A DNA stretch of 64,000 nucleotides from Dromaius novaehollandiae (taxonomy: Eukaryota). The notes under the pieces are model-generated. The model was not told the DNA's origin. It did no database searches and saw nothing but the letters and a program-made list of their open reading frames with translations. The stretch's first letter is position 1, and each line of letters opens with the position of its first letter. Shown here one piece after another: positions 21,301 to 64,000 of this stretch. The DNA lies in contig NC_088128.1 of the NCBI RefSeq assembly GCF_036370855.1, positions 292,899 through 356,898 on the forward strand, read 5' to 3'. The position numbers were made by a program, and so were the translations under genes.

Positions 21301-24300
21301 CGGAGAGGGACCCAAAACAGCCCCAAATCGCCCCAAAATGTGCTCCCCCCTGTCACAGAGGAGCTGCTGGGGAGAGGGAGGGGGAAGCGCCCTGAGGCGC
21401 CCCAAAATGGCAGCCGCCGCCTCACGGGCCGCGCGGTGACCTCAGCGCGGGGCCCGTCCTGAGGCGAGGAGGGACCCAAAAGTGCCCTGATTCACCCCAA
21501 AATGGTTCCCACCCTCCCCCTCGCTCGCCCCACAGAGGAGCTGCTGCGGAGAGGGACCCAAAACGGCCCCAAATCGCCCCAAAATGTGCTCCCCCCCCGC
21601 CACAGAGGAGCTGCTGGGGAGAGGGAAGCGCCCTGAGGCACCCCAAAATGGCGGCCGCCGCCTCACGGGCCGCTTGGCCCCCTCGGCGCAGGGCCCGTCC
21701 TGAGACGAGGAGGGACCCAAAACGGCCCCAATTCACCCCAAAATGGTTCCGATCCCCCCCCCATCTGCCCCACGGAGGAGCTGCTGCGGAGAGGGACCCA
21801 AAACAGCCCCAAATCGCCCCAAAATGTGCTCCCCCCCGCCACAGAGGAGCTGCTGGGGAGGGGGAAGCGCCCTGAGGCGCCCCAAAATGGCGGCCGCCGC
21901 CTCACAGGCCGCTCGGCCCCCTCGGTGCGGGGCCCGTCCTGAGGCGAGGAGGGACCCAAAACGGCCCCGATTCACCCCAAAATGGTTCCCACCCTCCCCC
22001 TCGCTTGCCCCACAGGGAAGCTGCTGCAGAGAGGGACCCAAAACGGCCCCAAATCGCCCCAAAATGTGCTCCCCCACCACCACAGAGGAGCTGCTGGGGA
22101 GAGGGAGGCGGAAGCACCCTGAGGCGCCCCAAAATGGCGGCCGCCGCCTCACGGGCCGCTCGGTGACCTCAGCGCGGGGCCCGTCCTGAGGCAAGGAGGG
22201 ACCCAAAACGGCCCCAATTCACCCCAAAATGGTTCCGATCCCCCCCCCATCTGCCCCACGGAGGAGCTGCTGCGGAGAGGGACCCAAAACAGCCCCAAAT
22301 CGCCCCAAAATGTGCTCCCCCCCTGCCACAGAGGAGCTGCTGGGGAGGGGGAAGCGCCCTGAGGCGCCCCAAAATGGCAGCCGCCGCCTCACAGGCCGCT
22401 CGGCCCCCTCGGTGCGGGGCCCGTCCTGAGGCGAGGAGGGACCCAAAACGGCCCCAATTCACCCCAAAATGGTTCCAATCCCCCCCCCATCTGCCCCATG
22501 GAGGAGCTGCTGCGGAGAGGGACCCAAAACGGCCCCAAATCGCCCCAAAATGTGCTCCCCCACCACCACAGAGGAGCTGCTGGGGAGGGGGAAGCGCCCT
22601 GAGGTGCCCCAAAATGGCGGCCGCCGCCTCACGGGCCGCTCGGCCCCCTCGGTGCGGGGCCCATCCTGAGGCAAGGAGGGACCCAAAACGGCCCCCATTC
22701 GCCCCAAAATGGTTCCCACCCTCCCCCTCGCTCGCCCCACAGAGGAGCTGCTGCGGAGAGGGACCCAAAACGGCCCCAAATCGCCCCAAAATGTGCTCCC
22801 CCCTGTCACAGAGGAGCTGCTGGGGAGGGGGAAGCGCCCTGAGGTGCCCCAAAGTGGCGGCCGCCGCCTCACGGGCCGCTTGGCCCCCTCGGCGCAGGGC
22901 CCGTCCTGAGGCGAGGAGGGACCCAAAACGGCCCCGATTCACCCCAAAATGGTTCCGATCCCCCCCCATCTGCCCCATGGAGGAGCTGCTGGGGAGAGGG
23001 ACCCAAAACGGCCCCAAATCGCCCCAAAATGTGCTCCCCCCCGCCACAGAGGAGCTGCTGGGGAGGGGGAAGCGCCCTGAGGCGCCCCAAAATGGCGGCC
23101 GCCGCCTCACGGGCCGCTTGGCCCCCTCGGCGCAGGGCCCGTCCTGAGACGAGGAGGGACCCAAAACGGCCCCGATTCACCCCAAAATGGTTCCGATCCC
23201 CCCCCATCTGCCCCATGGAGGAGCTGCTGGGGAGAGGGACCCAAAACAGCCCCAAATCGCCCCAAAATGTGCTCCCCCCCCGCCACAGAGGAGCTGCTGG
23301 GGAGGGGGAAGCGCCCTGAGGTGCCCCAAAATGGCGGCCGCCGCCTCACGGGCCGCGCGGTGACCTCAGCGGGGGTTGGGCTGCCAGGACGGCCCCAAAA
23401 CGGCCCCAAATTGCCCCAAAACGGCCCCAAATTGCCCCAAAACGTCTCCCCGTCCCCACAGACATGCTCGACCATCTCACCGCGGTTTTGACTGACAGGA
23501 AAGACCCAAAACGGCCCAAAGTTGCCCCAAAACACTTTTCCATCCCCACACTTGTGTTTGGTGATGTCAGTGCAGGATCTGACTACCAAAAAAGGCCCAA
23601 AACGGCCAAAAATCACCCCAAAACACTCCCTTGTCCCCACACTCACATTCGGTGACCTCAGTGCTGTTTTCACCGCCGAAACGGACCCAAAACGGCCCCA
23701 ATTCACCCCAAAACGCTTCCCTGTCTCCACAAACACGTTTGGTGACCTCAGTGCGGGTTTGACTGCCGAGACCGACCCAAAATCACCCCGATTCGCCCCA
23801 AAACCACCCCGATTCGCCCCAAAACACTTCCCCGTCCCCACACTCGCGTTTGATGACCTCAGTGCGGTTTTGACTACCAAAAAAGACCCAAAACAGCCTC
23901 AAATTGCCCCAAAACACTTTCTTGTCCCCACACTCGCGTTTGGTGACCTCAGTGTGGAATTTGACTGCTGAGACGCACCCAAAACAGCCCCGATTCACCC
24001 CAAGACACTTTCCTGTCCCCACACTCGCGTTTGGTGACCTCAGTGCAGCTTTTGACTACCAAAAAAGACCCAAAACAGCCTCAAATTGCCCCAAAGCACT
24101 TCCCCGTCCCCACACTCATGTTTGGTGACCTCAGCGAGGTCTTGACTGCCGAGACGGACCCAAAACCACCCCGATTCGCCCCAAAACACTTCCCTGTCCC
24201 CACACTCACGTTTGGTGACCTCAGTGTGGAATTTGACTGCCGAGACGGACCCAAAATGGCCCCAAATCACCCCAAAACACTTTCCTGTCCCCACACTTGC

Positions 24301-25195: not shown

Positions 25196-25203
25196 CCACT
25201 CAC

Positions 25204-25571
25204 GTGCTTGGCCTGCTCGGCGATCTCGGCGTGCGTGCGGTCCCAGAGGCTGGGGGGCTCCGGGGGGGCGGCGGCGGCGTCCAGCGACCCCCCCCCGGCG
25301 GCGGCGGCGGCGGGGGGGGCGGCGGGGGAGCCGGCCGAGGCGGGCGACACGGGCTCGCCGCCCGTCATGGCGCCCGTTGCGGGGGGGGGCGGCGGCGGCG
25401 GCGGGGGGGTGACGGTCACCTCGGGGCGCTGCGGCGGGCGGGCGGGGGGGGCGCGGGGGGGCGGGGGGGCGGCCTCATCCTGCTGCTCGGGCGGCCGCCG
25501 GGCCGGGCCGTCCAGCTCCTGGGTGCCCTGGCGGCCCAGCCTGCGCTCCGGGCCGCCGGGCGCCGAACCGC
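25204..25571 (-). CDS. SRCAP: SRCAP first coding exon; the start codon is probably the ATG at 25368..25366
   Basis: Translation is MTGGEPVSPASAGSPAAPPAAAAAGGGSLDAAAAPPEPPSLWDRTHAEIAEQAKH, ending in donor |gtgagtgg at 25203. Human has MTGSNPVSPASS...KGPKWEKSHAEIAEQAKH. Acceptor is cccccccgcag at 25572. The in-frame sequence upstream of the ATG is Pro/Ala-rich and unlike the human N-terminus, so 25369..25571 is probably 5'UTR. Confidence 0.8.
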
Positions 25572-30219: not shown

Positions 30220-30400
30220 CTGGGCGGGAGGGGAGGGGGGAGGCGGGAGGGGGGCGGGGGCGAGGGGAGGCGCCTGCCCGCTCCCGCCTCCGCCGCCGCC
30301 GCCTCAGCCGCGGCGCCGCCGCCGATCCGCCGCCATCCGCGGCCCGCCCGCCCCGGCCGCCGCCGCTCCGCCCGCCCCGGCCGCCGCGCCGCCGCGCCAA
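30220..30400 (-). other. SRCAP: Putative SRCAP non-coding exon 1 (5'UTR); the 5' end is undefined
   Basis: A strong minus-strand donor CCCAG|gtaaga lies at 30219-30218. It overlaps a YY1 core AAGATGGCGGC (plus strand gccgccatctt, 30207-30217). A 4.65-kb repeat-filled intron separates it from the acceptor at 25572. Alternatively the YY1 core marks a TSS and the first exon continues downstream. Confidence 0.35.
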
Positions 30401-31100
30401 AATGGCGCCCGCCGCGCCGCCTCGCTCACCGCCCCCCCCCCGCCTCCCCCGCGCCGCCGCCGCCGCCCGCCGCGCCCGCCGCCCCCCTCCCCCCCGCGCC
30501 GCGCCAGGCCCCGCCGCCGCCGAGAGGGGCTCACGGGAAATGGAGTCCGCGGCGCCAGGGCGAGCGGCAAAATGGCGGCGGCCGCCGCGGCCCGGCGCTC
30601 TCGCGAGAGGGGCGGGCGGCGCCGCCCCCCGCCCCGAGGGGAGGGGGGAGAGCGGAAGTCTCGCGAGAGGAGGGGGCGCGGCGGCGTGGGGAGGGGGGAG
30701 ATCTCGCGAGAGCGCGGCGCGGAGGGGGATGGGAAATGGAGGCGCGGCGCCGGGCGGGCGGGAGGGAGGGAGGAAGTCTCGCGAGAAGAGGGGAGGCGGG
30801 GTGAAAGCGCGGGGACGCGTGCGCGCGAGCTCTCGCGAGAATTGGGGAGGCGAAAGAAAGGGCGGGGAGCCGGCGCCGAGTCTCGCGAGAGCTGGGCGGG
30901 AGGCGGGGCGGCGCCGCGCGGCATGCCGGGAGCGGGCGCTCCCGCGCGGGAACGGCGTCGGGGGGGGGGGAGGAAGATGGCGGCGGGAGGCGCGTGGCGG
31001 CGGGCCCCGCCCCCTCGCCCAAGTCTCGCGAGAGCTGCGGGTCCGGCCACGAGAGTCTCGCGAGACTCGCGGAGCTCCGTGGGAAATGGAGGCCTGGGCG
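30400..31100. promoter_or_regulatory. CpG-island promoter region with eight TCTCGCGAGA palindromes and several YY1 cores, upstream of SRCAP
   Basis: TCTCGCGAGA occurs at 30599, 30659, 30702, 30777, 30831, 30881, 31024 and 31056. YY1-like cores on the plus strand are caaaatggcgcc at 30398, caaaatggcggcggc at 30568 and aagatggcggcgg at 30974. GGGAAATGGAG occurs at 30535, 30731 and 31081. The plus-strand ORF 30402..31199 was judged non-coding. Confidence 0.55.
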
Positions 31101-31289
31101 CGGGGCGTGCTGGGAGATGTAGTCCCGCCCCCAAAGAGGGTCAGAGGGCCCCCCCGGGTCCTAAAGACCTCCCCCCCTCTCCCGGCACCCTCGCATTGAC
31201 GCAGGTACCTGTGACATCACAGGCCTGCCAGTGACATCATCGCTCCCATGACATCACAGCTTGGGCAGCAAAGCATCGAGTAAAGCTGT

Positions 31290-32200
31290 ATTGGGGGGGA
31301 CCAGGTGACAGCACCCCCAGAGGCTCATGGGAAGGTTCCATTTGACACCCGCCCCAGGGGCTCATGGGAGGCTCTGGTTGACTCCAGCCCCAGGGGCTCA
31401 TGGGAAGGTTCTGGTTGACACCAGCCCCAGAGGCTCATGGGAAGCTCTGGTTGACATCAGCCCCAGAGGCACATGGGAAGGTTCTGGTTGATATCAGCCC
31501 CAGAGGCTCATGGGAGGCTCCAGTTGACTCCAGCCCCAGAGGCTCATGGGAGGCTCCGGTTGACACCAGCCCCAGAGGCTCATGGGAAGCTCTGGTTGAC
31601 ATCAGCCCCAGAGGCACATGGGAGGCTCCAGTTGACGCCAGCCTCAGAGGCTCATGGGAAGGTTCCAGTTGACTCCAGCCCCAGAGGCTCATGGGAAGGT
31701 TCTGGTTGACACCAGCCCCATAGGCTCATGGGAAGCTTTGGTTGACCCCAACCCCAGAGGCACATGGGAAGGTTCTGGTTGACATCTGCCCCAGAGGCTC
31801 ATGGGAAGGTTCTGGTTGACACCAGCCCCAGAGGCTCATGGGAAGCTTTGGTTGACCCCAACCCCAGAGGCACATGGGAAGGTTCTGGTTGACATCTGCC
31901 CCAGAGGCTCATGGGAAGGTTCCGGTTGACACCAGCCCCAGAGGCTCATGGGAAGCTTTGGTTGACCCCAACCCCAGAGGCTCATGGGAAGGTTCTGGTT
32001 GACATCTGCCCCAGAGGCTCATGGGAGGCTCCAGTTGACCCCAGAGGCTCATGGGAAGGTTCTGGTTGACACCAGCCCCAGAAGCTCATGGGAAGGTTCC
32101 AGCTGACTCCAGCCCCACAGGCTCATGGGAAGGCTCCAGTTGACCCCCAGCCCCAGAGGCTCATGGGAAGGTTCCAGTTGACACCTGCCCCAGAGGCTCA
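31290..32200. repeat. Minisatellite with a 40-bp unit (ggctcatgggaaggttctggttgacaccagccccagag)
   Basis: More than 20 copies are present. Confidence 0.85.
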
Positions 32201-32785
32201 TGGGAGGCTCCAGTTGACACCAAACTGTCCCCACTGCCCCACAGCTGCCCCCAACTGCTGCCCCAGCCCCACAGCTGCCCCCACTTCTGCCCCCCCAGCC
32301 CCCCAACTGCCCCCCCACCCTGTTAACTGCCCCCCACCTGCCCCCCAGCCCCACATCTGCCCTCTCAGCTGCCCCACGAACCTGCTAACTGCCCCCCATT
32401 GCTCCCACTGCCCCACAGCTGCCCCCCCAGCCCCCCAACTGCCCCCTCGGCTGCCCCCCCCCAGCCTGTTAACAGCCCCCCCAGGGCCCCACACCTGCCC
32501 CCAACTGCCCCCTCAGCCTGTTAACGGCCCCCCATTGCCCCCCAGCCCCACAGCTGCCCCCCAACTGCCCCCTCAACTGCCCCCCCGGCCTGGCAACTGC
32601 CCCCCATGGCTCCCACTGCCCCACAGCTGCCCCCCAGCCCCCCAGCTGCCCCCCCCAGCTGCCCCCCCAGCCTGGCAACTGCCCCCCATGGCTCCCACTG
32701 CCCCCCAGCTGCCCCCCAACTGCCCCCTCAGCTGCCCCCCGGCCCCCGCCGCCCCCCAGCTGCCCCCCAGCCACCCCTCGCCGCC
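32200..32785. repeat. Array with a short unit (cagctgcccccc, about 12-15 bp) and higher-order variation
   Basis: The motifs ctgcccccca(g/a)c(t/c) and ctgttaac are repeated. Confidence 0.75.
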
Positions 32786-32789
32786 TCCC

Positions 32790-33030
32790 GCCCGCCCCGA
32801 CCTCGCCGCCGCGGCCCCGCCAATGGGCGCGCGCCTTGCTGCCGGGCGCCGCCGGCGCGGGCCAATGGGAGCGCGGCTTGCTTGGGGGGCGGGGGGAGGC
32901 GCCGCGGCGGCGAAGGGCAGCGGCGCCTTCTTGAGGGAGGACAGGAGGCGGCCGGGGGGCGGGGCCGCCGAAGCCGCCGCCGCCATCTTGGGTGAGGGAA
33001 GGGGGGGGCTTAAAGGGGCCGCGCGGCTGC
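32790..33030. promoter_or_regulatory. Orphan promoter-like unique island (twin CCAAT boxes, GC boxes, YY1 core, TTAAAG box)
   Basis: gccaatggg occurs at 32818 and 32862. gccgccgccatcttgg|gtgaggg lies at 32975-32996. Read on the plus strand it is a donor-like GTGAGG. Read on the minus strand it is caagATGGCGGCGGC, a YY1-type initiator opening the ORF MAAAASAAPPPGRLLSSLKK. The 16-mer gcttaaaggggccgcg at 33008-33023 is identical to the one at the ALDOA 5' end (63938-63953). Confidence 0.4.
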
Positions 33031-33730
33031 CTTAGCGACCGCCCCTAGCGACCGCCCCTAGCAACCCGCCATAGCAACCAGCCCCTAACAACCGGCTCCC
33101 TAGCAACCTGCCATAGCAACCGCCCCTAGCAACTGACAACCTAACAACCGGCCCCCTAGCAACCCACCATAGCAACGGCCCCAGCAACCGGCACTGTAAC
33201 AACCGGCCCCTAGCAGCCCGCCATAGCAACCGCCCCTAGCAACTGACAACCTAACAACCGGCCCCTAGCAACCCGCCATAGCAACCCACCATAGCAACCG
33301 CCCCTAGCAACCGGCACTGTAACAACTGGACCCCTAGCAACCCGCCATAGCAACCATCCCCGTAACAACCGGACCCCTAGCAACCGGCCACAGCAACTGC
33401 CGTTAGCAACCGGCACCGTAACAACTGGACCCCTAGCAACCCTAACCGTTACAACCAGCCCCTAACAAACGGCCCCTAGCAACCATCTCCCTAGCAACCA
33501 CCCCTAGCAACCAGTACCATAACAACCAGACCCCTAGCAACCGCCCCTAACAACCAGCACCGTAACAACCGGACCCCTAGCAACCCGCTGTTACAATCAG
33601 CCCCTAATAACCAGCCCCTAGCAACCTGCCATAGCAACCAGCCCCTAGCAACAGGCCCCTAGCAACCAGCCCCATCAACCGGCCCCTAGCAACCATCTCT
33701 CTTAGCAACCAGCCCCTAGCAACCGTCCCT
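33030..33730. repeat. Array with a unit of about 14 bp (ccctagcaaccggc / ccatagcaacc)
   Basis: tagcaacc is repeated more than 40 times. Confidence 0.85.
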
Positions 33731-35640
33731 ATACGCCCCGAGGCCCCTATAGCCCCCCCAGGACCCCCTGCTGCCCCTGTGCAGCCCTGGGCCTCCACAC
33801 AACCCCCCGACCCCCTACAGCCCCGCACAACACCCCCCTATAGACCCCCTATAGGGGTTCTGCCATGCTCTGCACCCCCCCATAACTCCCAATAGGGCTG
33901 TATAGCCCTCTGCAGCCCCCCGTAACCCCCTATAGCGCCTATAGGGATTCTATAACCCCCTACAGCCCCCCCACAAGCCCCTATATGCTGCCTGCAATGC
34001 CTATAGGCCCCTGATAACTTCCCTGTAGGCTCCTGAGACTCCTATATATCTTCCCGTGACCCCCTACAGCCCCCATACATCCCTTTACAGCCCCCTAAGT
34101 CCCTACGGTTCTCCTCCATAGTCCTCCATACAGTTGCTACACAGTCAGATCTCCTACCGCCACCCCCACCCGGCCCTGTCACCGTCTATAGACTCTATAA
34201 TCCCCAGGAACTTCTATAAGCTCCCTATGATTCCCTGTAGTCCCTGTGCATCTCTTATAGGCTCTCTATAAATATCCATAGTTATGCTATAACTTCCATA
34301 TGGGCCCTGTACAGCTCCTATAGGGCACGTGAAATGCTCCTCTCCTCCCCTTAACCCCCTATAGCCTCTATACAGCCCCTACAGGCCCCCTTTGGCTTGC
34401 TATGGCCCCCCTATAGCCCCTACACACCCGTAGAGGGTCGTTAAAACACCCCTATGGCCTTCTAGAGTCCCTATAGACTGCATATAGGCTGCCTGTACTC
34501 ATCTGCCGCCCCTGTGCGGCCCCCTATAACACCCATAGGCCCCCCCATACGCCTCCTATAGCCCCCTATACACCCCCGACAGCTCCCTGGAGCCCTCAGA
34601 AAGCCCCTATACAGCCCTTATGGGGCCCCTAAAAGCTCCCATAGCCCCTCTACACCCCCTATAGGCCCCCTACAGCCCCACATGGCCCCTATACAGCCCC
34701 CTATAGCTCCCCAGAGACCCCCTATGGGTCCCCTATAACCCCCTCTAGCCCCTATACAGCTCCCTATAGACCCCGGCACCCCCTATGGGTCCCCTATGAA
34801 CCCGCTTAGTCCCTGTACAGCCCTCTATAGCTCCCCAGAAGCCCCCTATGGGTCCCCTATAACCCCCCTAGCCCCTATACAGCCCCCTATAGCCCCCCCA
34901 GAGGCCCCCAATAAACCTCCCTAGCCCCTATACAGCCCCCAAGAGGCCCCTTTGGGTCCCCTATAAACTCCCCTAGCCCCTATACAGCCCCCTATAGCCC
35001 CTGGTACCCGCTATGGGTCCTCTATAACCCCCCCAGCCCCTCTACAGCCTCCTGCAGCCCCCCAGAGGACCCCTATAGCCCCTAGGCACCCCTATGGGTC
35101 ACCTATAAACCTCTCTAGCCACTATACAGCCCCCTGTAGCCCCCCAGAGGCCCCCTATAGCCCCTATGCAACTCTACGGGTCCCCTATAAACCTCTCTAG
35201 CCCCTATACAGCCCCCTATAGCCCCTCAGAGGCTCCTAGGGGTCCCCTGTAACCCCCCCAGCCCCTATACAGCCCCTGGCACCCCCTCTGGGTGCCCTAT
35301 ACAGCCCCCTATAGCCCCCCAGAAGTCCCCTATAGCCCCTGGGACCCCCATGGGTCCCCTATGAACCCCCCCTACCCCCCATACAACCCCTATAGCCCCC
35401 CCAGAGGCCTCCTATAGCCCCCCCAGAGCCCCTATGGGTCCCCTATAACCCCCCAGCCCCTATACAGCCCCCTATAGCCCCCCCAGAGGCCTCCTATAGC
35501 CCCCCCAGAGCCCCTATGGGTCCCCTATAACCCCCCAGCCCCTATACAGCCCCCTATAGCCCCCCCAGAGCCCCTATGGGTCCCCTACAGCCCCCCAGAG
35601 GCCCCTATAGAGCCCCCCCATAGCCCCCCCCCCCGGCCCC
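33730..35640. repeat. Array based on cccctatacagccccctatagcccc, about 60-110 bp, with a more AT-rich degenerate core from 34080 to 34330
   Basis: ccctata(c/g)agcc motifs run throughout. TATAAATA at about 34265 lies inside a degenerate copy of this repeat. Confidence 0.8.
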
Positions 35641-35870
35641 TCTAGGACCCAGGGAGAGGCCACGGCAGTGGGCGGGGCCACAGCCCCCCCACCCCTCCCA
35701 TTGGCTCCTGCCTCCCACCAATGAGGGGGCTACAGGGGCGGGGCCTGGGGAGGCAGGCCAGGACGCTGGGGGGCGGGGCTAAGGGGCAGGGGGCGGGGCT
35801 TGGGGAGGGGGCGGGGCCAGGGCAGCCCGAACACCTGGGTCCCTTCGGGGGGGGGGGGGGACAGCGACTC
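35640..35870. promoter_or_regulatory. GC-box / CCAAT cluster, unique sequence
   Basis: cccattggctcc and caccaatgag form inverted CCAAT boxes at 35697-35730. Five or more gggcgggg Sp1-type boxes lie between 35735 and 35820. Confidence 0.4.
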
Positions 35871-35874
35871 CCAT

Positions 35875-36010
35875 TTCTGTGCTTTTTTTTTGCTGTTTTT
35901 ATTACAATTTTGCGGATTTTTGCGGTTTTTTTTTCCCTCTTTTTTTCTTTTTTTTTTTTTTATCTAAAAGGAGCAGAAAGAGCGTCCGGAAAACAAAAAC
36001 GTACGGAACC
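35875..36010 (-). terminator. PPP4C: The only AT-rich tract in the region, carrying a minus-strand AATAAA; candidate 3' end of the PPP4C transcript
   Basis: The plus strand reads ctttttttttgctgtttttattacaattttgcgg. The minus strand therefore carries AATAAA at 35903..35898, followed by an A-rich run. It is the first AATAAA on the minus strand downstream of the PPP4C stop at 37336. Confidence 0.35.
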
Positions 36011-60200: not shown

Positions 60201-61460
60201 GTGCCTCACCAGTGGACTCATCAGCGGCGAGGATGCCCTTGCCGGGGGCGACGATGCGCAGGGCGACGGCGGCGAGCTCCCCCAGTGCCTCCCAGTGCCT
60301 CCCAGTGCCCTCTAAACCCCTCCCAGTGCCCTCCAAACCCCTCCCAGTCCCCTCCCAGTGCCCTCCCAGTGCTCCCAGTGCCTCACCAGTGGACTCATCG
60401 GCGGCGAGGATGCCCTTGCCGGGGGCGACGATGCGCAGGGCGATGTCGGCGAGCTCCCCCAGTGCCTCCCAGTGCCTCCCAGTGCCCCCCAAACCCCTCC
60501 CAGTGCCCCCCAAACCCCTCCCAGTCCCCTCCCAGTGCCTCCCAGTGCTCCCAGTGCCTCACCAGTGGACTCATCGGCGGCGAGGATGCCCTTGCCGGGG
60601 GCGACGATGCGCAGGGCGATGTCGGCGAGCTCCCCCAGTGCCTCCCAGTGCCCTCTAAACCCCTCCCAGTGCCCCCCAAACCCCTCCCAGTCCCCTCCCA
60701 GTGCCTCCCAGTGCTCCCAGTGCCTCACCAGTGGACTCATCGGCGGCGAGGATGCCCTTGCCGGGGGCGACGATGCGCAGGGCGATGTCGGCGAGCTCCC
60801 CCAGTGCCTCCCAGTGCCTCCCAATGCCCCCCAAACCCCTCCCAGTGCCCCCCAAACCCCTCCCAGTGCCTCCCAGTGCTCCCAGTGCCTCACCAGTGGA
60901 CTCATCGGCGGCGAGGATGCCCTTGCCGGGGGCGACGATGCGCAGGGCGATGTCGGCGAGCTCCCCCAGTGCCTCCCAGTGCCTCCCAGTGCCCTCTAAA
61001 CCCCTCCCAGTGCCCCCCAAACCCCTCCCAGTGCCCTCCAAACCCCTCCCAGTGCCCCCCAAACCCCTCCCAGTCCCCTCCCAGTGCCTCCCAGTGCTCC
61101 CAGTGCCTCACCAGTGGACTCATCGGCGGCGAGGATGCCCTTGCCGGGGGCGACGATGCGCAGGGCGATGTCAGCGAGCTTCCCCAGTGCCTCCCAGTGC
61201 CTCCCAGTGCCCCCCAAACCCCTCCCAGTGCCCCCAAACCCCTCCCAGTGCCCTCCAAACCCCTCCCAGTGCCCTCCCAGTGCTCCCAGTGCCTCACCAG
61301 TGGACTCATCGGCGGCGAGGATGCCCTTGCCGGGGGCGACGATGCGCAGGGCGATGTCGGCGAGCTCCCCCAGTGCCTCCCAGTGCCTCCCAATGCCCCC
61401 CAAACCCCTCCCAGTGCCCCCCAAACCCCTCCCAGTGCCTCCCAGTGCTCCCAGTGCCTC
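60200..61460. repeat. ALDOA: Tandem array of about 165-217 bp holding seven truncated copies of the 3' end of the ALDOA first coding exon, each with an intact 5' splice site
   Basis: Copies lie at about 60204, 60381, 60558, 60723, 60888, 61105 and 61292. In each copy the minus strand reads [24 protein letters not shown]|gtgaggc, with minor variants in copies 1 and 6. The ATG and acceptor are absent, and ccagtgcctccc 12-mers flank each copy. Confidence 0.85.
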
Positions 61461-61462
61461 AC

Positions 61463-61582
61463 CAGTGGACTCATCGGCGGCGAGGATGCCCTTGCCGGGG
61501 GCGACGATGCGCAGGGCGATGTCGGCGAGCTCCTTCTTCTGCTCGGGGCTCAGCGCCGGGTACTGGTGCGGCATGGCGGCTC
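61463..61582 (-). CDS. ALDOA: ALDOA first coding exon (ATG at 61574..61572)
   Basis: Translation is [37 protein letters not shown](G). Human ALDOA has [38 protein letters not shown]. Acceptor is cccccgcag at 61583 and donor is G|gtgaggc at 61462. Confidence 0.9.
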
Positions 61583-63830: not shown

Positions 63831-63832
63831 AC

Positions 63833-63915: not shown

Positions 63916-64000
63916 GCGGCGGGAGGGGGCGGGGGGGCGCTTAAAGGGGCCGCGGCGCCGAGCGCTGAGTCACCGGGCGGGGGGGGGGGATTTGGGGTGC
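63835..64000 (-). promoter_or_regulatory. ALDOA: Candidate ALDOA promoter region
   Basis: A CRE ccgtgacgtcag lies at 63889-63900. GC boxes are present. A TTAAAG-type box sits inside gcttaaaggggccgcg at 63938-63953. An AP-1-like ctgagtcacc lies at 63965-63974. The window ends at 64000. Confidence 0.4.

What the first reader, a model, noticed from the sequence alone, without database searches (positions are those of the whole stretch)
32790..33030. Orphan promoter-like island between SRCAP and PPP4C shares an exact 16-mer with the ALDOA 5' region
This is a unique 240-bp segment embedded between two satellite arrays. It has twin CCAAT boxes 42 bp apart (32818 and 32862), GC boxes, and a YY1 core that on the minus strand reads caagATGGCGGCGGC and opens the ORF MAAAASAAPPPGRLLSSLKK. 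On the plus strand the same bases give a GTGAGG donor-like site. It also carries gcttaaaggggccgcg, which is identical to 63938-63953 next to the ALDOA first exon. No conserved coding exon follows on either strand, so it may drive a non-coding RNA or a small or rapidly evolving gene. Alternatively it may be a retained promoter of a gene lost from this interval.
Basis: seen in the sequence. Interest (0 to 1): 0.55.

Follow-up and report, generated by a model that had tools for sequence, protein, structure and literature searches.

The report
Conserved CpG island upstream of SRCAP
The 240-bp segment is a real, single-copy, non-coding CpG island with promoter-type motifs, kept in at least three ratite-type birds; it is most likely a piece of the SRCAP gene's upstream control region that satellite DNA has cut off, which makes it an ordinary kind of element rather than a hidden gene.

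Summary
ALDOA, PPP4C and SRCAP all lie on the minus strand. The island sits 2.9 kb past the PPP4C poly(A) signal and 1.7 kb upstream of the SRCAP core promoter.

- **CpG island:** observed/expected CpG is 0.96, against 0.05-0.18 on the left flank. On the right it falls from 0.68 in the adjoining array to 0.17. Its orthologues in two other palaeognath assemblies score 0.95 and 0.88.
- **Conserved parts:** a TTTAAG box, a 47-bp YY1 block with the GTGAGG site, and an 86-bp block holding two copies of a 22-nt CCAAT box.
- **Non-coding:** the spacer between the blocks carries frame-breaking indels. The MAAAAS open reading frame matches no protein.
- **16-mer:** it does not extend, and 7 of 200 shuffles give a match as long.
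- **Canonical SRCAP start:** it lies in the TCTCGCGAGA cluster at 30.6-31.07 kb, not in the island.
- **Neognath comparison:** kakapo and tit have only 0.1-0.5 kb between the PPP4C poly(A) region and that cluster, with the same motif order.

Best reading: this is a distal SRCAP promoter module stranded by satellite expansion. It probably fires in both directions and yields non-coding RNA. Transcription, its direction and any effect on SRCAP are untested. Interest is low to moderate.

The parts
32790..33030 (.). The island: a single-copy CpG island (GC 0.81, CpG o/e 0.96, 37 CpGs)
   Evidence: orthologous CpG islands at L001 24390-24640 (o/e 0.95) and L002 22525-22775 (o/e 0.88)
32804..32889 (.). 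86-bp conserved block holding the two CCAAT boxes
   Evidence: At least 27/30 identity to both L001 and L002 throughout; 92-93% pairwise identity; 14 of 17 CpGs shared by all three species
32819..32840 (+). 22-nt box copy 1, GCCAATGGGCGCGCGCCTTGCT (CCAAT at 32820)
32861..32882 (+). 22-nt box copy 2, GCCAATGGGAGCGCGGCTTGCT (CCAAT at 32862), 42 bp from copy 1
   Evidence: 43 bp is a reported spacing class of NF-Y-bound double CCAAT sites (PMC4889920)
32890..32953 (.). Variable G-rich spacer with Sp1-type runs (GGGGCGGGG at 32886-32894). Carries indels of 11 nt (ostrich-type locus) and 18+2 nt (kiwi-type locus)
   Evidence: 30-55% pairwise identity
32954..33000 (.). 47-bp conserved block: GC box (32956-32964), YY1 motif and the CCCTCACC/GGTGAGGG octamer
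   Evidence: 86-95% identity
32980..32990 (-). YY1 core CAAGATGGCGG; the ATG at 32986-32984 opens the non-conserved 137-aa ORF
32992..32997 (+). GTGAGG donor-like site (TGG|GTGAGG), kept in all three species. On the other strand it reads as the CTCACC initiator-like sequence
   Evidence: My own approximate donor weight-matrix score is 6.6. Real donors in the window score 6.9 (ALDOA leader) and 2.6 (SRCAP exon 1); alignment
33009..33016 (-). TATA-like CCTTTAAG, 26-36 bp upstream of CTCACC/YY1 on the minus strand, kept in all three species
33008..33023 (+). The 16-mer GCTTAAAGGGGCCGCG shared with 63939-63954
63939..63954 (+). Second copy of the 16-mer. It lies in the ALDOA 5' flank between an AP-1 site and a CRE, about 110 nt upstream of the leader-exon donor CAG|GTGGGG (~63832)
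32223..32789 (.). C-rich ~11-mer array flanking the island on the left (G-rich on the SRCAP-sense strand), CpG o/e 0.18
   Evidence: same repeat family in L001 and L002
31306..32222 (.). 37-bp satellite (25 copies) between the island and the SRCAP promoter, CpG o/e 0.05
33033..33731 (.). TAGCAACCGCCCC 13-mer array flanking the island on the right
30536..31135 (-). Canonical SRCAP CpG-island promoter and exon 1: ZNF143-type site at 31108-31123, eight TCTCGCGAGA motifs at 30599-31065, YY1 sites, and the exon-1 donor CATTTCCC|GTGAGC at 30536|30535
   Evidence: the kakapo SRCAP-like model P0151 reads through the equivalent sequence
35656..35722 (.). Second small conserved block just past the PPP4C poly(A) signal: an inverted CCAAT pair (ATTGG 35700, CCAAT 35718) plus a GC box. 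It is not a CpG island (o/e 0.30)

Best explanation
The island is a distal promoter-type module of the SRCAP 5' flank.

In birds ALDOA, PPP4C and SRCAP lie head to tail. In neognaths the PPP4C-SRCAP spacer is under 1 kb. It carries, in order, sense-oriented YY1 sites (AAGATGGCGGC), CCAAT boxes, a CRE-like TGAYGTMA element and then the TCTCGCGAGA cluster where SRCAP starts. In the palaeognath lineage four satellite arrays inflated this spacer to about 4.8 kb. The YY1, Sp1 and double-CCAAT part was left as a 240-bp island 1.7 kb upstream of the core promoter.

The island has stayed unmethylated, which implies that factors occupy it in the germ line. It most likely works as an NF-Y-centred promoter element that fires in both directions and makes only non-coding RNA. 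That RNA would be an upstream SRCAP-sense leader, an antisense short first exon ending at GTGAGG, or both. The element would support SRCAP transcription as a YY1/NF-Y-bound upstream element.

Shown here:
- CpG-island status in three species
- conservation of the motifs and blocks
- lack of coding potential
- single-copy status in the sequence examined
- the position of the canonical SRCAP start
- the neognath motif order

Inferred: factor binding, transcription and its direction, and any effect on SRCAP.
For: **Gene map.** ALDOA runs 63.95->49.0 kb, the PPP4C coding sequence 45657->37339, and the SRCAP ATG is at 25368. All are on the minus strand.

**Canonical SRCAP start.** It lies in the TCTCGCGAGA cluster at 30599-31065. 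The exon-1 donor is at 30536|30535 and is conserved to tit and kakapo. The kakapo model P0151 reads through the equivalent sequence.

**CpG island.** The island's CpG o/e is 0.96, against 0.05-0.18 on the left. On the right it falls from 0.68 in the adjoining array to 0.17. The orthologous islands score 0.95 and 0.88, with flanks at 0.14-0.47. In the CCAAT block 14 of 17 CpGs are shared by all three species, with a single TG/CA replacement.

**Conserved blocks.** The TTTAAG, YY1 and double-CCAAT blocks are conserved and free of indels, while the spacer and the flanks are not.

**22-nt CCAAT box.** It is present twice at the orthologous place in each palaeognath and nowhere else. The 42-bp spacing is close to the 43-bp class of NF-Y-bound double sites (PMC4889920).

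**Neognath spacers.** In kakapo the PPP4C poly(A) region and the first TCTCGCGAGA motif are about 0.46 kb apart; tit has 0.1-0.4 kb of unique sequence there. Both show the order YY1(sense) -> CCAAT/ATTGG -> TGAYGTMA -> TCTCGCGAGA cluster. The window shows YY1 -> ATTGG x2 -> [satellites] -> TGATGTCA x3 -> cluster.

**Tit gene calls.** The tit SRCAP gene calls start at the ATG inside that YY1 motif.

**GC skew.** The skew flips at the CCAAT pair in all three species: -0.3 on the SRCAP-sense strand before it and +0.6 after it. The canonical SRCAP promoter shows the same pattern, -0.34 then +0.22.

**Background.** Unannotated conserved CpG islands are commonly promoters (PMC2944787).
Against: - The island has no significant sequence match to the neognath spacers (z 0.5-1.6). 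The homology rests on position and motif order only.
- Block identity of 92-95% is no higher than PPP4C four-fold sites at 89-91%. Point-substitution conservation alone therefore does not prove constraint.
- No transcript, transcription-start or chromatin data were available.
- Direction is unresolved.
  - Four features favour the plus strand. The CCAAT boxes lie upstream. GCCGCCATCTT is on the sense strand, as in SRCAP exon 1. A good GT donor is conserved. That stretch is G-rich.
  - Three features favour the minus strand. A TTTAAG box is conserved 26-36 bp before CTCACC. The YY1 motif has the same orientation as in neognaths. The tit gene calls start in that motif.
- There is no strong minus-strand donor inside the island, and no conserved poly(A) signal downstream on the plus strand.
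Confidence: 0.5

Rival explanations
1. Independent promoter of an unannotated spliced long non-coding RNA on the plus strand. It would be divergent from SRCAP and convergent with, or antisense to, the PPP4C 3' end. The start would lie near 32930-32970, with a short first exon ending at TGG|GTGAGG (32991|32992).
For: - The CCAAT boxes would lie about 70-150 bp upstream of such a start, and GC boxes lie between them and it.
- The YY1 motif reads GCCGCCATCTT on that strand, as it does in SRCAP's own exon 1.
- The GTGAGG donor is kept in all three species. Its score on my approximate donor matrix is 6.6, in the range of real donors here.
- The plus strand is G-rich from 32865 to 33030.
- YY1 motifs are over-represented just downstream of human transcription starts (PMC8384218).
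Against: - There is no conserved exon-like block and no conserved poly(A) signal on the plus strand between the island and PPP4C. The only AATAAA (34910) lies in a satellite and is absent from the orthologues.
- The intron would consist of arrays that offer dozens of YAG acceptors.
- The conserved TTTAAG box would then be intronic and unexplained.
- No RNA family matches.
Confidence: 0.22
2. A neutral leftover. The segment would be unique intergenic DNA that still aligns only because palaeognath genomes change slowly. It would look promoter-like because the whole region is GC-rich.
For: - Block identity of 92-95% is about the same as PPP4C four-fold sites at 89-91%.
- GC boxes and ATGGCGGC strings are common across this 65-84% GC window.
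Against: - CpG o/e stays at 0.88-0.96 in three lineages while the adjacent arrays are depleted to 0.05-0.47, and 14 of 17 CpGs in the CCAAT block are shared. Methylated neutral DNA would have lost them.
- The conserved blocks are free of indels, while the spacer and the flanks are riddled with them.
- The 22-nt CCAAT box is kept twice in each species.
Confidence: 0.12
3. Retained promoter of a gene lost from this interval. In human the TBX6...FBRS block lies between PPP4C and SRCAP.
For: - From my own knowledge of the human gene map (not tested here), PPP4C and SRCAP are about 0.6 Mb apart in human, with many genes between them.
- One passerine locus has GDPD3 convergent on PPP4C (L006).
- No coding exon lies near the island.
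- tblastn found no MAPK3, YPEL3 or T-box sequence in the window. The queries were human proteins that I wrote from memory.
Against: - PPP4C->SRCAP adjacency is shared by palaeognaths, kakapo and tits, so it is old in birds.
- A promoter with no gene would not be expected to stay an unmethylated CpG island with intact motifs across the ostrich-kiwi divergence.
- The motif order matches the neognath SRCAP flank.
Confidence: 0.05
4. First coding exon of a small or fast-evolving protein gene on the minus strand, starting MAAAASAAPPP.
For: - The ATG has a good Kozak-like context (caagATGG) inside a YY1 motif.
- The 137-aa ORF is open.
Against: - Indels of 11 nt and of 18+2 nt break the frame within the first 10-25 codons in the two orthologues.
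- No strong donor lies within the ORF before the G-rich array.
- No protein hit at E<=10 among 5.8 billion sequences.
- No hit at E<=0.001 among 1.84 billion representatives.
- The exact ORFs are not in the collection.
- Open frames are expected in 81% GC DNA.
Confidence: 0.03

Closest known systems
Orphan CpG islands that act as unannotated or alternative promoters (Illingworth et al. 2010, PMC2944787)
   Same: A discrete CpG island away from any called coding start, conserved between species, carrying promoter-type motifs.
   Different: The defining evidence for that class is unmethylated status by CAP-seq, H3K4me3 and initiation. None of this is available here; unmethylated status is only inferred from CpG retention. 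The setting is a bird microchromosome, with the island wedged between satellite arrays.
NF-Y-driven bidirectional promoters with arrays of CCAAT boxes, such as Mrps12/Sarsm (PMC1802594), and double-CCAAT NF-Y platforms (PMC4889920)
   Same: Two well-formed CCAAT boxes with fixed spacing (42 bp, near the reported 43-bp class). GC-rich sites lie nearby. GC skew flips at the boxes.
   Different: No gene is known on either side. NF-Y binding is untested. Each box is embedded in a longer conserved 22-nt unit whose other half (GCGCGSCTTGCT) has no assigned factor.
YY1 motif just downstream of transcription starts in TATA-less promoters (Xi et al. 2007, as cited in PMC8384218)
   Same: A full AAGATGGCGGC/GCCGCCATCTT match in a CpG island, conserved in three species. 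SRCAP's own exon 1 has three such motifs.
   Different: The start site is unknown, so the defining position (about +10 to +25) cannot be checked. PMC8384218 reports YY1 motifs as virtually absent from TATA-containing promoters. That sits badly with a TTTAAG-plus-YY1 minus-strand core promoter.
The SRCAP upstream promoter region of neognath birds (kakapo L023 9470-9930; ground tit L012 12960-13290)
   Same: Same position between the PPP4C poly(A) site and the TCTCGCGAGA cluster. Same order of YY1(sense), CCAAT and CRE-like elements.
   Different: No significant sequence alignment. The neognath region is contiguous with the core promoter. Here, 1.5 kb of satellite lies between them.

Membership tests
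CpG island (Gardiner-Garden type criteria) | Length of at least 200 bp, GC above 0.5-0.55, CpG o/e above 0.6 | tested here: met
   241 bp, GC 0.81, o/e 0.96; orthologues 0.95 and 0.88
RNA polymerase II CpG-island promoter (NF-Y/Sp1/YY1 class) | Consensus CCAAT, GC-box and YY1 motifs present and conserved in orthologues | tested here: met
RNA polymerase II CpG-island promoter (NF-Y/Sp1/YY1 class) | Transcription initiates there (CAGE, 5' ends), with the CCAAT boxes about 60-100 bp upstream of the start | not testable with these tools
   No transcript or start-site data are held for this species. Gene tables show coding extents only.
Orphan CpG island | No annotated transcription start overlaps it | tested here: inconclusive
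   No coding gene is called between PPP4C and SRCAP in L001 or L002. Untranslated exons and lncRNA annotations are not visible in the tool.
Canonical SRCAP core promoter and exon 1 | TCTCGCGAGA cluster, GCCGCCATTTTGCC, and the donor CATTTCCC|GTGAGC shared by palaeognaths, tit and kakapo | tested here: not met
   These lie at 30536-31065, not in the island.
Protein-coding first exon | Reading frame kept in orthologues; product resembles some protein | tested here: not met
   Frame-breaking indels; no protein hits
Dispersed repeat or transposable-element fragment | Several copies at non-orthologous places | tested here: not met
   The longest k-mer shared with the rest of the window is 16 nt. 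BLAST and pattern searches hit only the orthologous site among 24 loci. A genome-wide check was not possible.
Sequence homologous to the ALDOA 5' region | Similarity extends beyond the 16-mer, or exceeds chance | tested here: not met
   Extension is 0 nt on both sides. 7 of 200 shuffles reach 16 nt or more.
TATA-box core promoter (minus strand) | TATA-type box about 25-35 bp upstream of the start site | tested here: inconclusive
   CCTTTAAG is conserved 26-36 bp upstream of CTCACC/AAGATGG in three species. TTTAAG is a weak TATA variant and the start site is unknown.
Known structured RNA gene (Rfam) | Match at the family's gathering score | tested here: not met
   0 matches in the whole window. 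Only chance-level hits appear at 30.0-36.5 kb.

The most novel reading that the evidence does not exclude
The island is the promoter of an unannotated transcription unit specific to and conserved in palaeognaths. This would be a spliced antisense RNA that converges on the PPP4C 3' end, or a former gene's promoter co-opted after the gene was lost. It would be kept active for tens of millions of years while embedded in satellite DNA.
Probability: 0.25. Interest if true: 0.4.

Novelty: new member of a known kind. Interest (0 to 1): 0.25.

Why it matters
If the main reading is right, the case shows how satellite expansion on bird microchromosomes can pull a compact promoter region apart. Here a spacer of under 1 kb became about 4.8 kb. 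The factor-binding pieces survive as small unmethylated CpG islands. Such islands would look like orphan promoters to annotators of telomere-to-telomere bird assemblies. The case also gives a defined test for whether a YY1/NF-Y module still serves its gene across 1.5 kb of satellite. It does not reveal a new gene or a new kind of element.

Tried and rejected
- **Spliced PPP4C look-up:** I solved this by taking the protein id from the cluster listing.
- **Alligator, cormorant-type and penguin loci:** they are full of N runs or end just past PPP4C, so they say nothing about the spacer.
- **Hamster Srcap look-up:** it returned nothing.
- **Only SRCAP transcript contig reached:** the Logan contig L024 is from a distant species (65% identity), and its 5' leader is uninformative.
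- **Local alignment to neognath spacers:** alignment of the island to the kakapo and tit spacers was not significant.
- **Rfam:** no family matched.
- **Six-frame Pfam scan of 31.2-36.0 kb:** The three-species block scan already shows no conserved exon-like block there.
- **tblastn for other human 16p11.2 genes:** MAPK3, YPEL3 and the T-box gave no hit in the window. The queries were human sequences written from my memory.
- **Exact look-up of the four ORFs over the island:** none is in the collection.
- **Xi et al. 2007:** the library does not hold it. Statements on YY1 motif orientation rest on my memory and on PMC8384218.
- **Rejected ideas:**
  - A type-3 polymerase III promoter: no PSE or octamer, and no RNA family match.
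  - A CTCF site: I saw no motif by eye and ran no formal scan.
  - An LTR pair formed by the island and the 35.7-kb block: a BLAST of the island against the orthologous loci, which hold the equivalent block, gave no match there.

Full report
**1. What is in the window**

The window is very GC-rich (0.54-0.84 per kb) and packed with tandem arrays. I located three genes by tblastn, using human protein sequences that I wrote from memory as queries. All three lie on the minus strand.
- ALDOA has its coding exons at 61574->49028 and a leader exon ending near 63832.
- PPP4C has its coding sequence at 45657->37339.
- SRCAP has residues 100-165 at 18372-18175 and runs off the left end.
- The first SRCAP coding exon ends at 25201, and its ATG is at 25368.

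The spliced PPP4C protein is identical to the one annotated in Struthio camelus and Apteryx mantelli. The source is therefore a palaeognath bird. It is not either of the two assemblies I could fetch. Those are L001 (GCA_036417845.1) and L002 (GCA_040807025.1), which align to the window at 66-87%. Which of the two is kiwi and which is ostrich is my inference from the accessions.

**2. The observation**

- The CCAAT boxes are at 32820 and 32862.
- GGGGCGGGG occurs at 32886 and 32956.
- The YY1 core is at 32980-32990.
- GTGAGG is at 32992.
- The 16-mer is at 33008 and at 63939.

The segment is unique sequence between a C-rich ~11-mer array and a TAGCAACC 13-mer array.

The 16-mer does not extend by a single base. 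A shared match of 16 nt or more arose in 7 of 200 dinucleotide shuffles. It is therefore weak evidence of anything. CTTAAAG does occur only at these two places in the window. In both places it reads CCCCTTTAAGC on the strand of the nearby minus-strand gene. In the orthologues only CTTAAAGGrrCCGCsCGGC is kept. I read the shared 16-mer as the same TATA-like motif or as coincidence, not as homology.

**3. The island is a real, conserved CpG island**

CpG o/e is 0.96 (37 CpGs in 241 bp). The two arrays on the left score 0.05 and 0.18. On the right the value falls from 0.68 to 0.17. The orthologous segments in L001 (24390-24640) and L002 (22525-22775) score 0.95 and 0.88, with flanks at 0.14-0.47.

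A three-way alignment shows three blocks free of indels:
- CCTTTAAG with its flanks
- a 47-bp block, CCCTCACC-AAGATGGCGGCGGCGGCTTCGGCGGCCCCGCC (window 33000-32954)
- an 86-bp block with both CCAAT boxes (32889-32804)

A scan for 30-mers with at least 27 matches in both other species picks out exactly these blocks in the interval. Its other hits are the PPP4C 3' end, a small block at 35656-35690, the SRCAP promoter and exons, and the satellite families.

Each CCAAT lies in the same 22-nt unit, GCCAATGGGMGCGCGSCTTGCT. The unit occurs twice here, twice at the orthologous site in L001 and in L002, and nowhere else in the window or in the other 22 loci. The 42-bp spacing is close to the 43-bp class of NF-Y-bound double CCAAT sites (PMC4889920).

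One caution applies. Block identity is 92-95%, which is no higher than PPP4C four-fold degenerate sites at 89-91%. Substitution-level conservation alone does not prove constraint. The stronger evidence is twofold:
- CpGs are retained. In the CCAAT block 14 of 17 are shared by all three species, with one TG/CA change.
- The blocks lack indels, whereas the spacer next to them is only 30-55% identical.

**4. It is not coding**

The spacer between the YY1 block and the CCAAT block carries an 11-nt deletion in L002. In L001 it carries an 18-nt deletion plus a 2-nt insertion. Only the first 9-11 codons of the MAAAAS frame are therefore shared.
- The peptide finds nothing at E<=10 among 5.8 billion proteins.
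- It finds nothing at E<=0.001 among 1.84 billion representatives.
- The exact ORFs over the island are not in the collection.
- No coding gene is called between PPP4C and SRCAP in L001 or L002.
- No Rfam family matches.

**5. Where SRCAP really starts**

On the minus strand the region 31135-30175 is a second CpG island (o/e about 1.0). It holds:
- a ZNF143-type site (31108-31123)
- eight exact TCTCGCGAGA motifs (30599-31065)
- three GCCGCCAT(C/T)TT motifs
- the sequence GGACTCCATTTCCC|GTGAGC, with its donor at 30536|30535
- a further CAG|GTAAGA at 30222

All are conserved in L001 and L002. The TCTCGCGAGA cluster and the CATTTCCC|GTGAGC junction are also present in ground tit and kakapo. The kakapo 'helicase SRCAP-like' model P0151 translates through a TCTCGCGAGA motif and the GCCGCCATTTTGCC site. 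It then joins the next exon right after that junction. The canonical SRCAP promoter is therefore at 30.6-31.1 kb, and the island lies 1.7 kb upstream of it.

**6. Neognath comparison**

ALDOA->PPP4C->SRCAP adjacency also holds in two tits (L011, L012) and in kakapo (L023). The arrangement is therefore old in birds.

In those species the stretch between the PPP4C poly(A) region and the first TCTCGCGAGA motif is short: about 0.46 kb in kakapo and 0.1-0.4 kb of unique sequence in tit. It contains, in order:
- YY1 motifs in the SRCAP-sense orientation (CAAGATGGCGGCG)
- CCAAT or ATTGG boxes
- a TGAYGTMA element
- the TCTCGCGAGA cluster

The window has the same order with arrays inserted: PPP4C poly(A) signal (35898-35903) - GC boxes and an inverted CCAAT pair (35656-35722) - arrays - TTTAAG, YY1, ATTGG x2 (the island) - arrays - TGATGTCA x3 (31212-31256) - ZNF143 site - cluster.

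The four array families occur in the same order in L001 and L002. The expansion therefore predates the split of these three lineages. The tit SRCAP gene calls begin at the ATG inside the first YY1 motif.

Against this reading, local alignment of the island to the neognath spacers is not significant (z 0.5-1.6). The proposed homology is positional only.

**7. How it most likely works, and in which direction**

The features fit an NF-Y-centred CpG-island promoter element.

Four features favour plus-strand initiation:
- The CCAAT boxes would lie about 70-150 bp upstream of a start near 32930-32970.
- The YY1 motif reads GCCGCCATCTT on that strand, as it does in SRCAP exon 1.
- TGG|GTGAGG is conserved. 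Its score on an approximate donor matrix that I built from remembered frequencies is 6.6, against 6.9 for the ALDOA leader donor and 2.6 for the SRCAP exon-1 donor.
- That strand is G-rich over 32865-33030.

Three features favour minus-strand initiation:
- The conserved CCTTTAAG lies 26-36 bp before CTCACC-AAGATGG.
- The YY1 orientation matches the neognath SRCAP flank.
- The strong G-richness (+0.6) begins just past the CCAAT pair on that strand.

The skew flip at the CCAAT pair is the same in all three species and resembles the canonical SRCAP promoter. That fits divergent initiation on both sides. There is no strong minus-strand donor inside the island, and no conserved plus-strand poly(A) signal before PPP4C. 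Any product is probably non-coding and may be unstable.

I therefore commit, at about 0.5, to a distal SRCAP promoter module stranded by satellite expansion. It would be unmethylated and factor-bound, would probably fire in both directions, and would support SRCAP. Factor binding, transcription and the effect on SRCAP are inferences.

**8. Rivals**

- Independent plus-strand lncRNA promoter: 0.22
- Neutral leftover: 0.12
- Promoter of a lost gene: 0.05
- Coding first exon: 0.03

**9. Verdict**

The finding is real and was described correctly. It belongs to a known kind: a conserved CpG island that is unannotated in the gene calls I could see, most likely an upstream or alternative promoter element. 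The link to ALDOA and the ORF are not meaningful. Interest is low to moderate. The main point of note is the satellite-split promoter region on a bird microchromosome.

Noticed in passing
window 60208-61574 (minus strand): About 70 nt from the 3' part of the first ALDOA coding exon (real exon 61574-61461) is repeated seven more times in tandem in the downstream intron. Each copy keeps the splice donor ACTG|GTGAGG. The array is therefore an exon-derived satellite offering seven decoy donors.
   Followed up: partly
window 30599-31123; L001 25745-26279; L002 25347-25807; L012 13290-14102; L023 9931-10080: The SRCAP promoter carries a cluster of exact TCTCGCGAGA motifs, eight in the window. The window and L001 also have a ZNF143-type site (ACTACATCTCCCAGCA); the scan did not find it in L002. 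The motif cluster is kept from palaeognaths to tit and kakapo.
   Followed up: partly
window 35656-35722 (L001 ~22274-22340, L002 ~21492-21560): A conserved inverted CCAAT pair (ATTGG-N13-CCAAT) with a GC box lies about 180-250 bp past the PPP4C poly(A) signal, after a variable run of CCCCGCCCC repeats. It is not a CpG island (o/e 0.30). Its role is unknown; it could be a terminator or pause element, or another stranded piece of the SRCAP flank.
   Followed up: partly
window 31306-35630; L001 22400-25600; L002 21600-25100: All four satellite families between PPP4C and SRCAP occur in the same order in three palaeognath genomes. They are a 37-mer, a C-rich 11-mer, the TAGCAACC 13-mer and CCCCTATAG-type units. 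The arrays therefore predate the split of these lineages.
   Followed up: partly
L003-L012 (passerine PPP4C loci): The identical PPP4C protein has different downstream neighbours in different passerine assemblies: convergent GDPD3 in L006, CLN3 in L009 and SRCAP in L011/L012. PPP4C gene length ranges from 2.4 kb to 33 kb. This could reflect rearrangement, duplication or assembly problems on this microchromosome.
   Followed up: no
window 25478-25368 (minus strand): An upstream ATG (CAGGATGAGG, 25478) in the SRCAP leader exon is out of frame with the annotated start at 25368. It is a possible upstream ORF. The kakapo model instead extends the coding frame through the two upstream exons.
   Followed up: no
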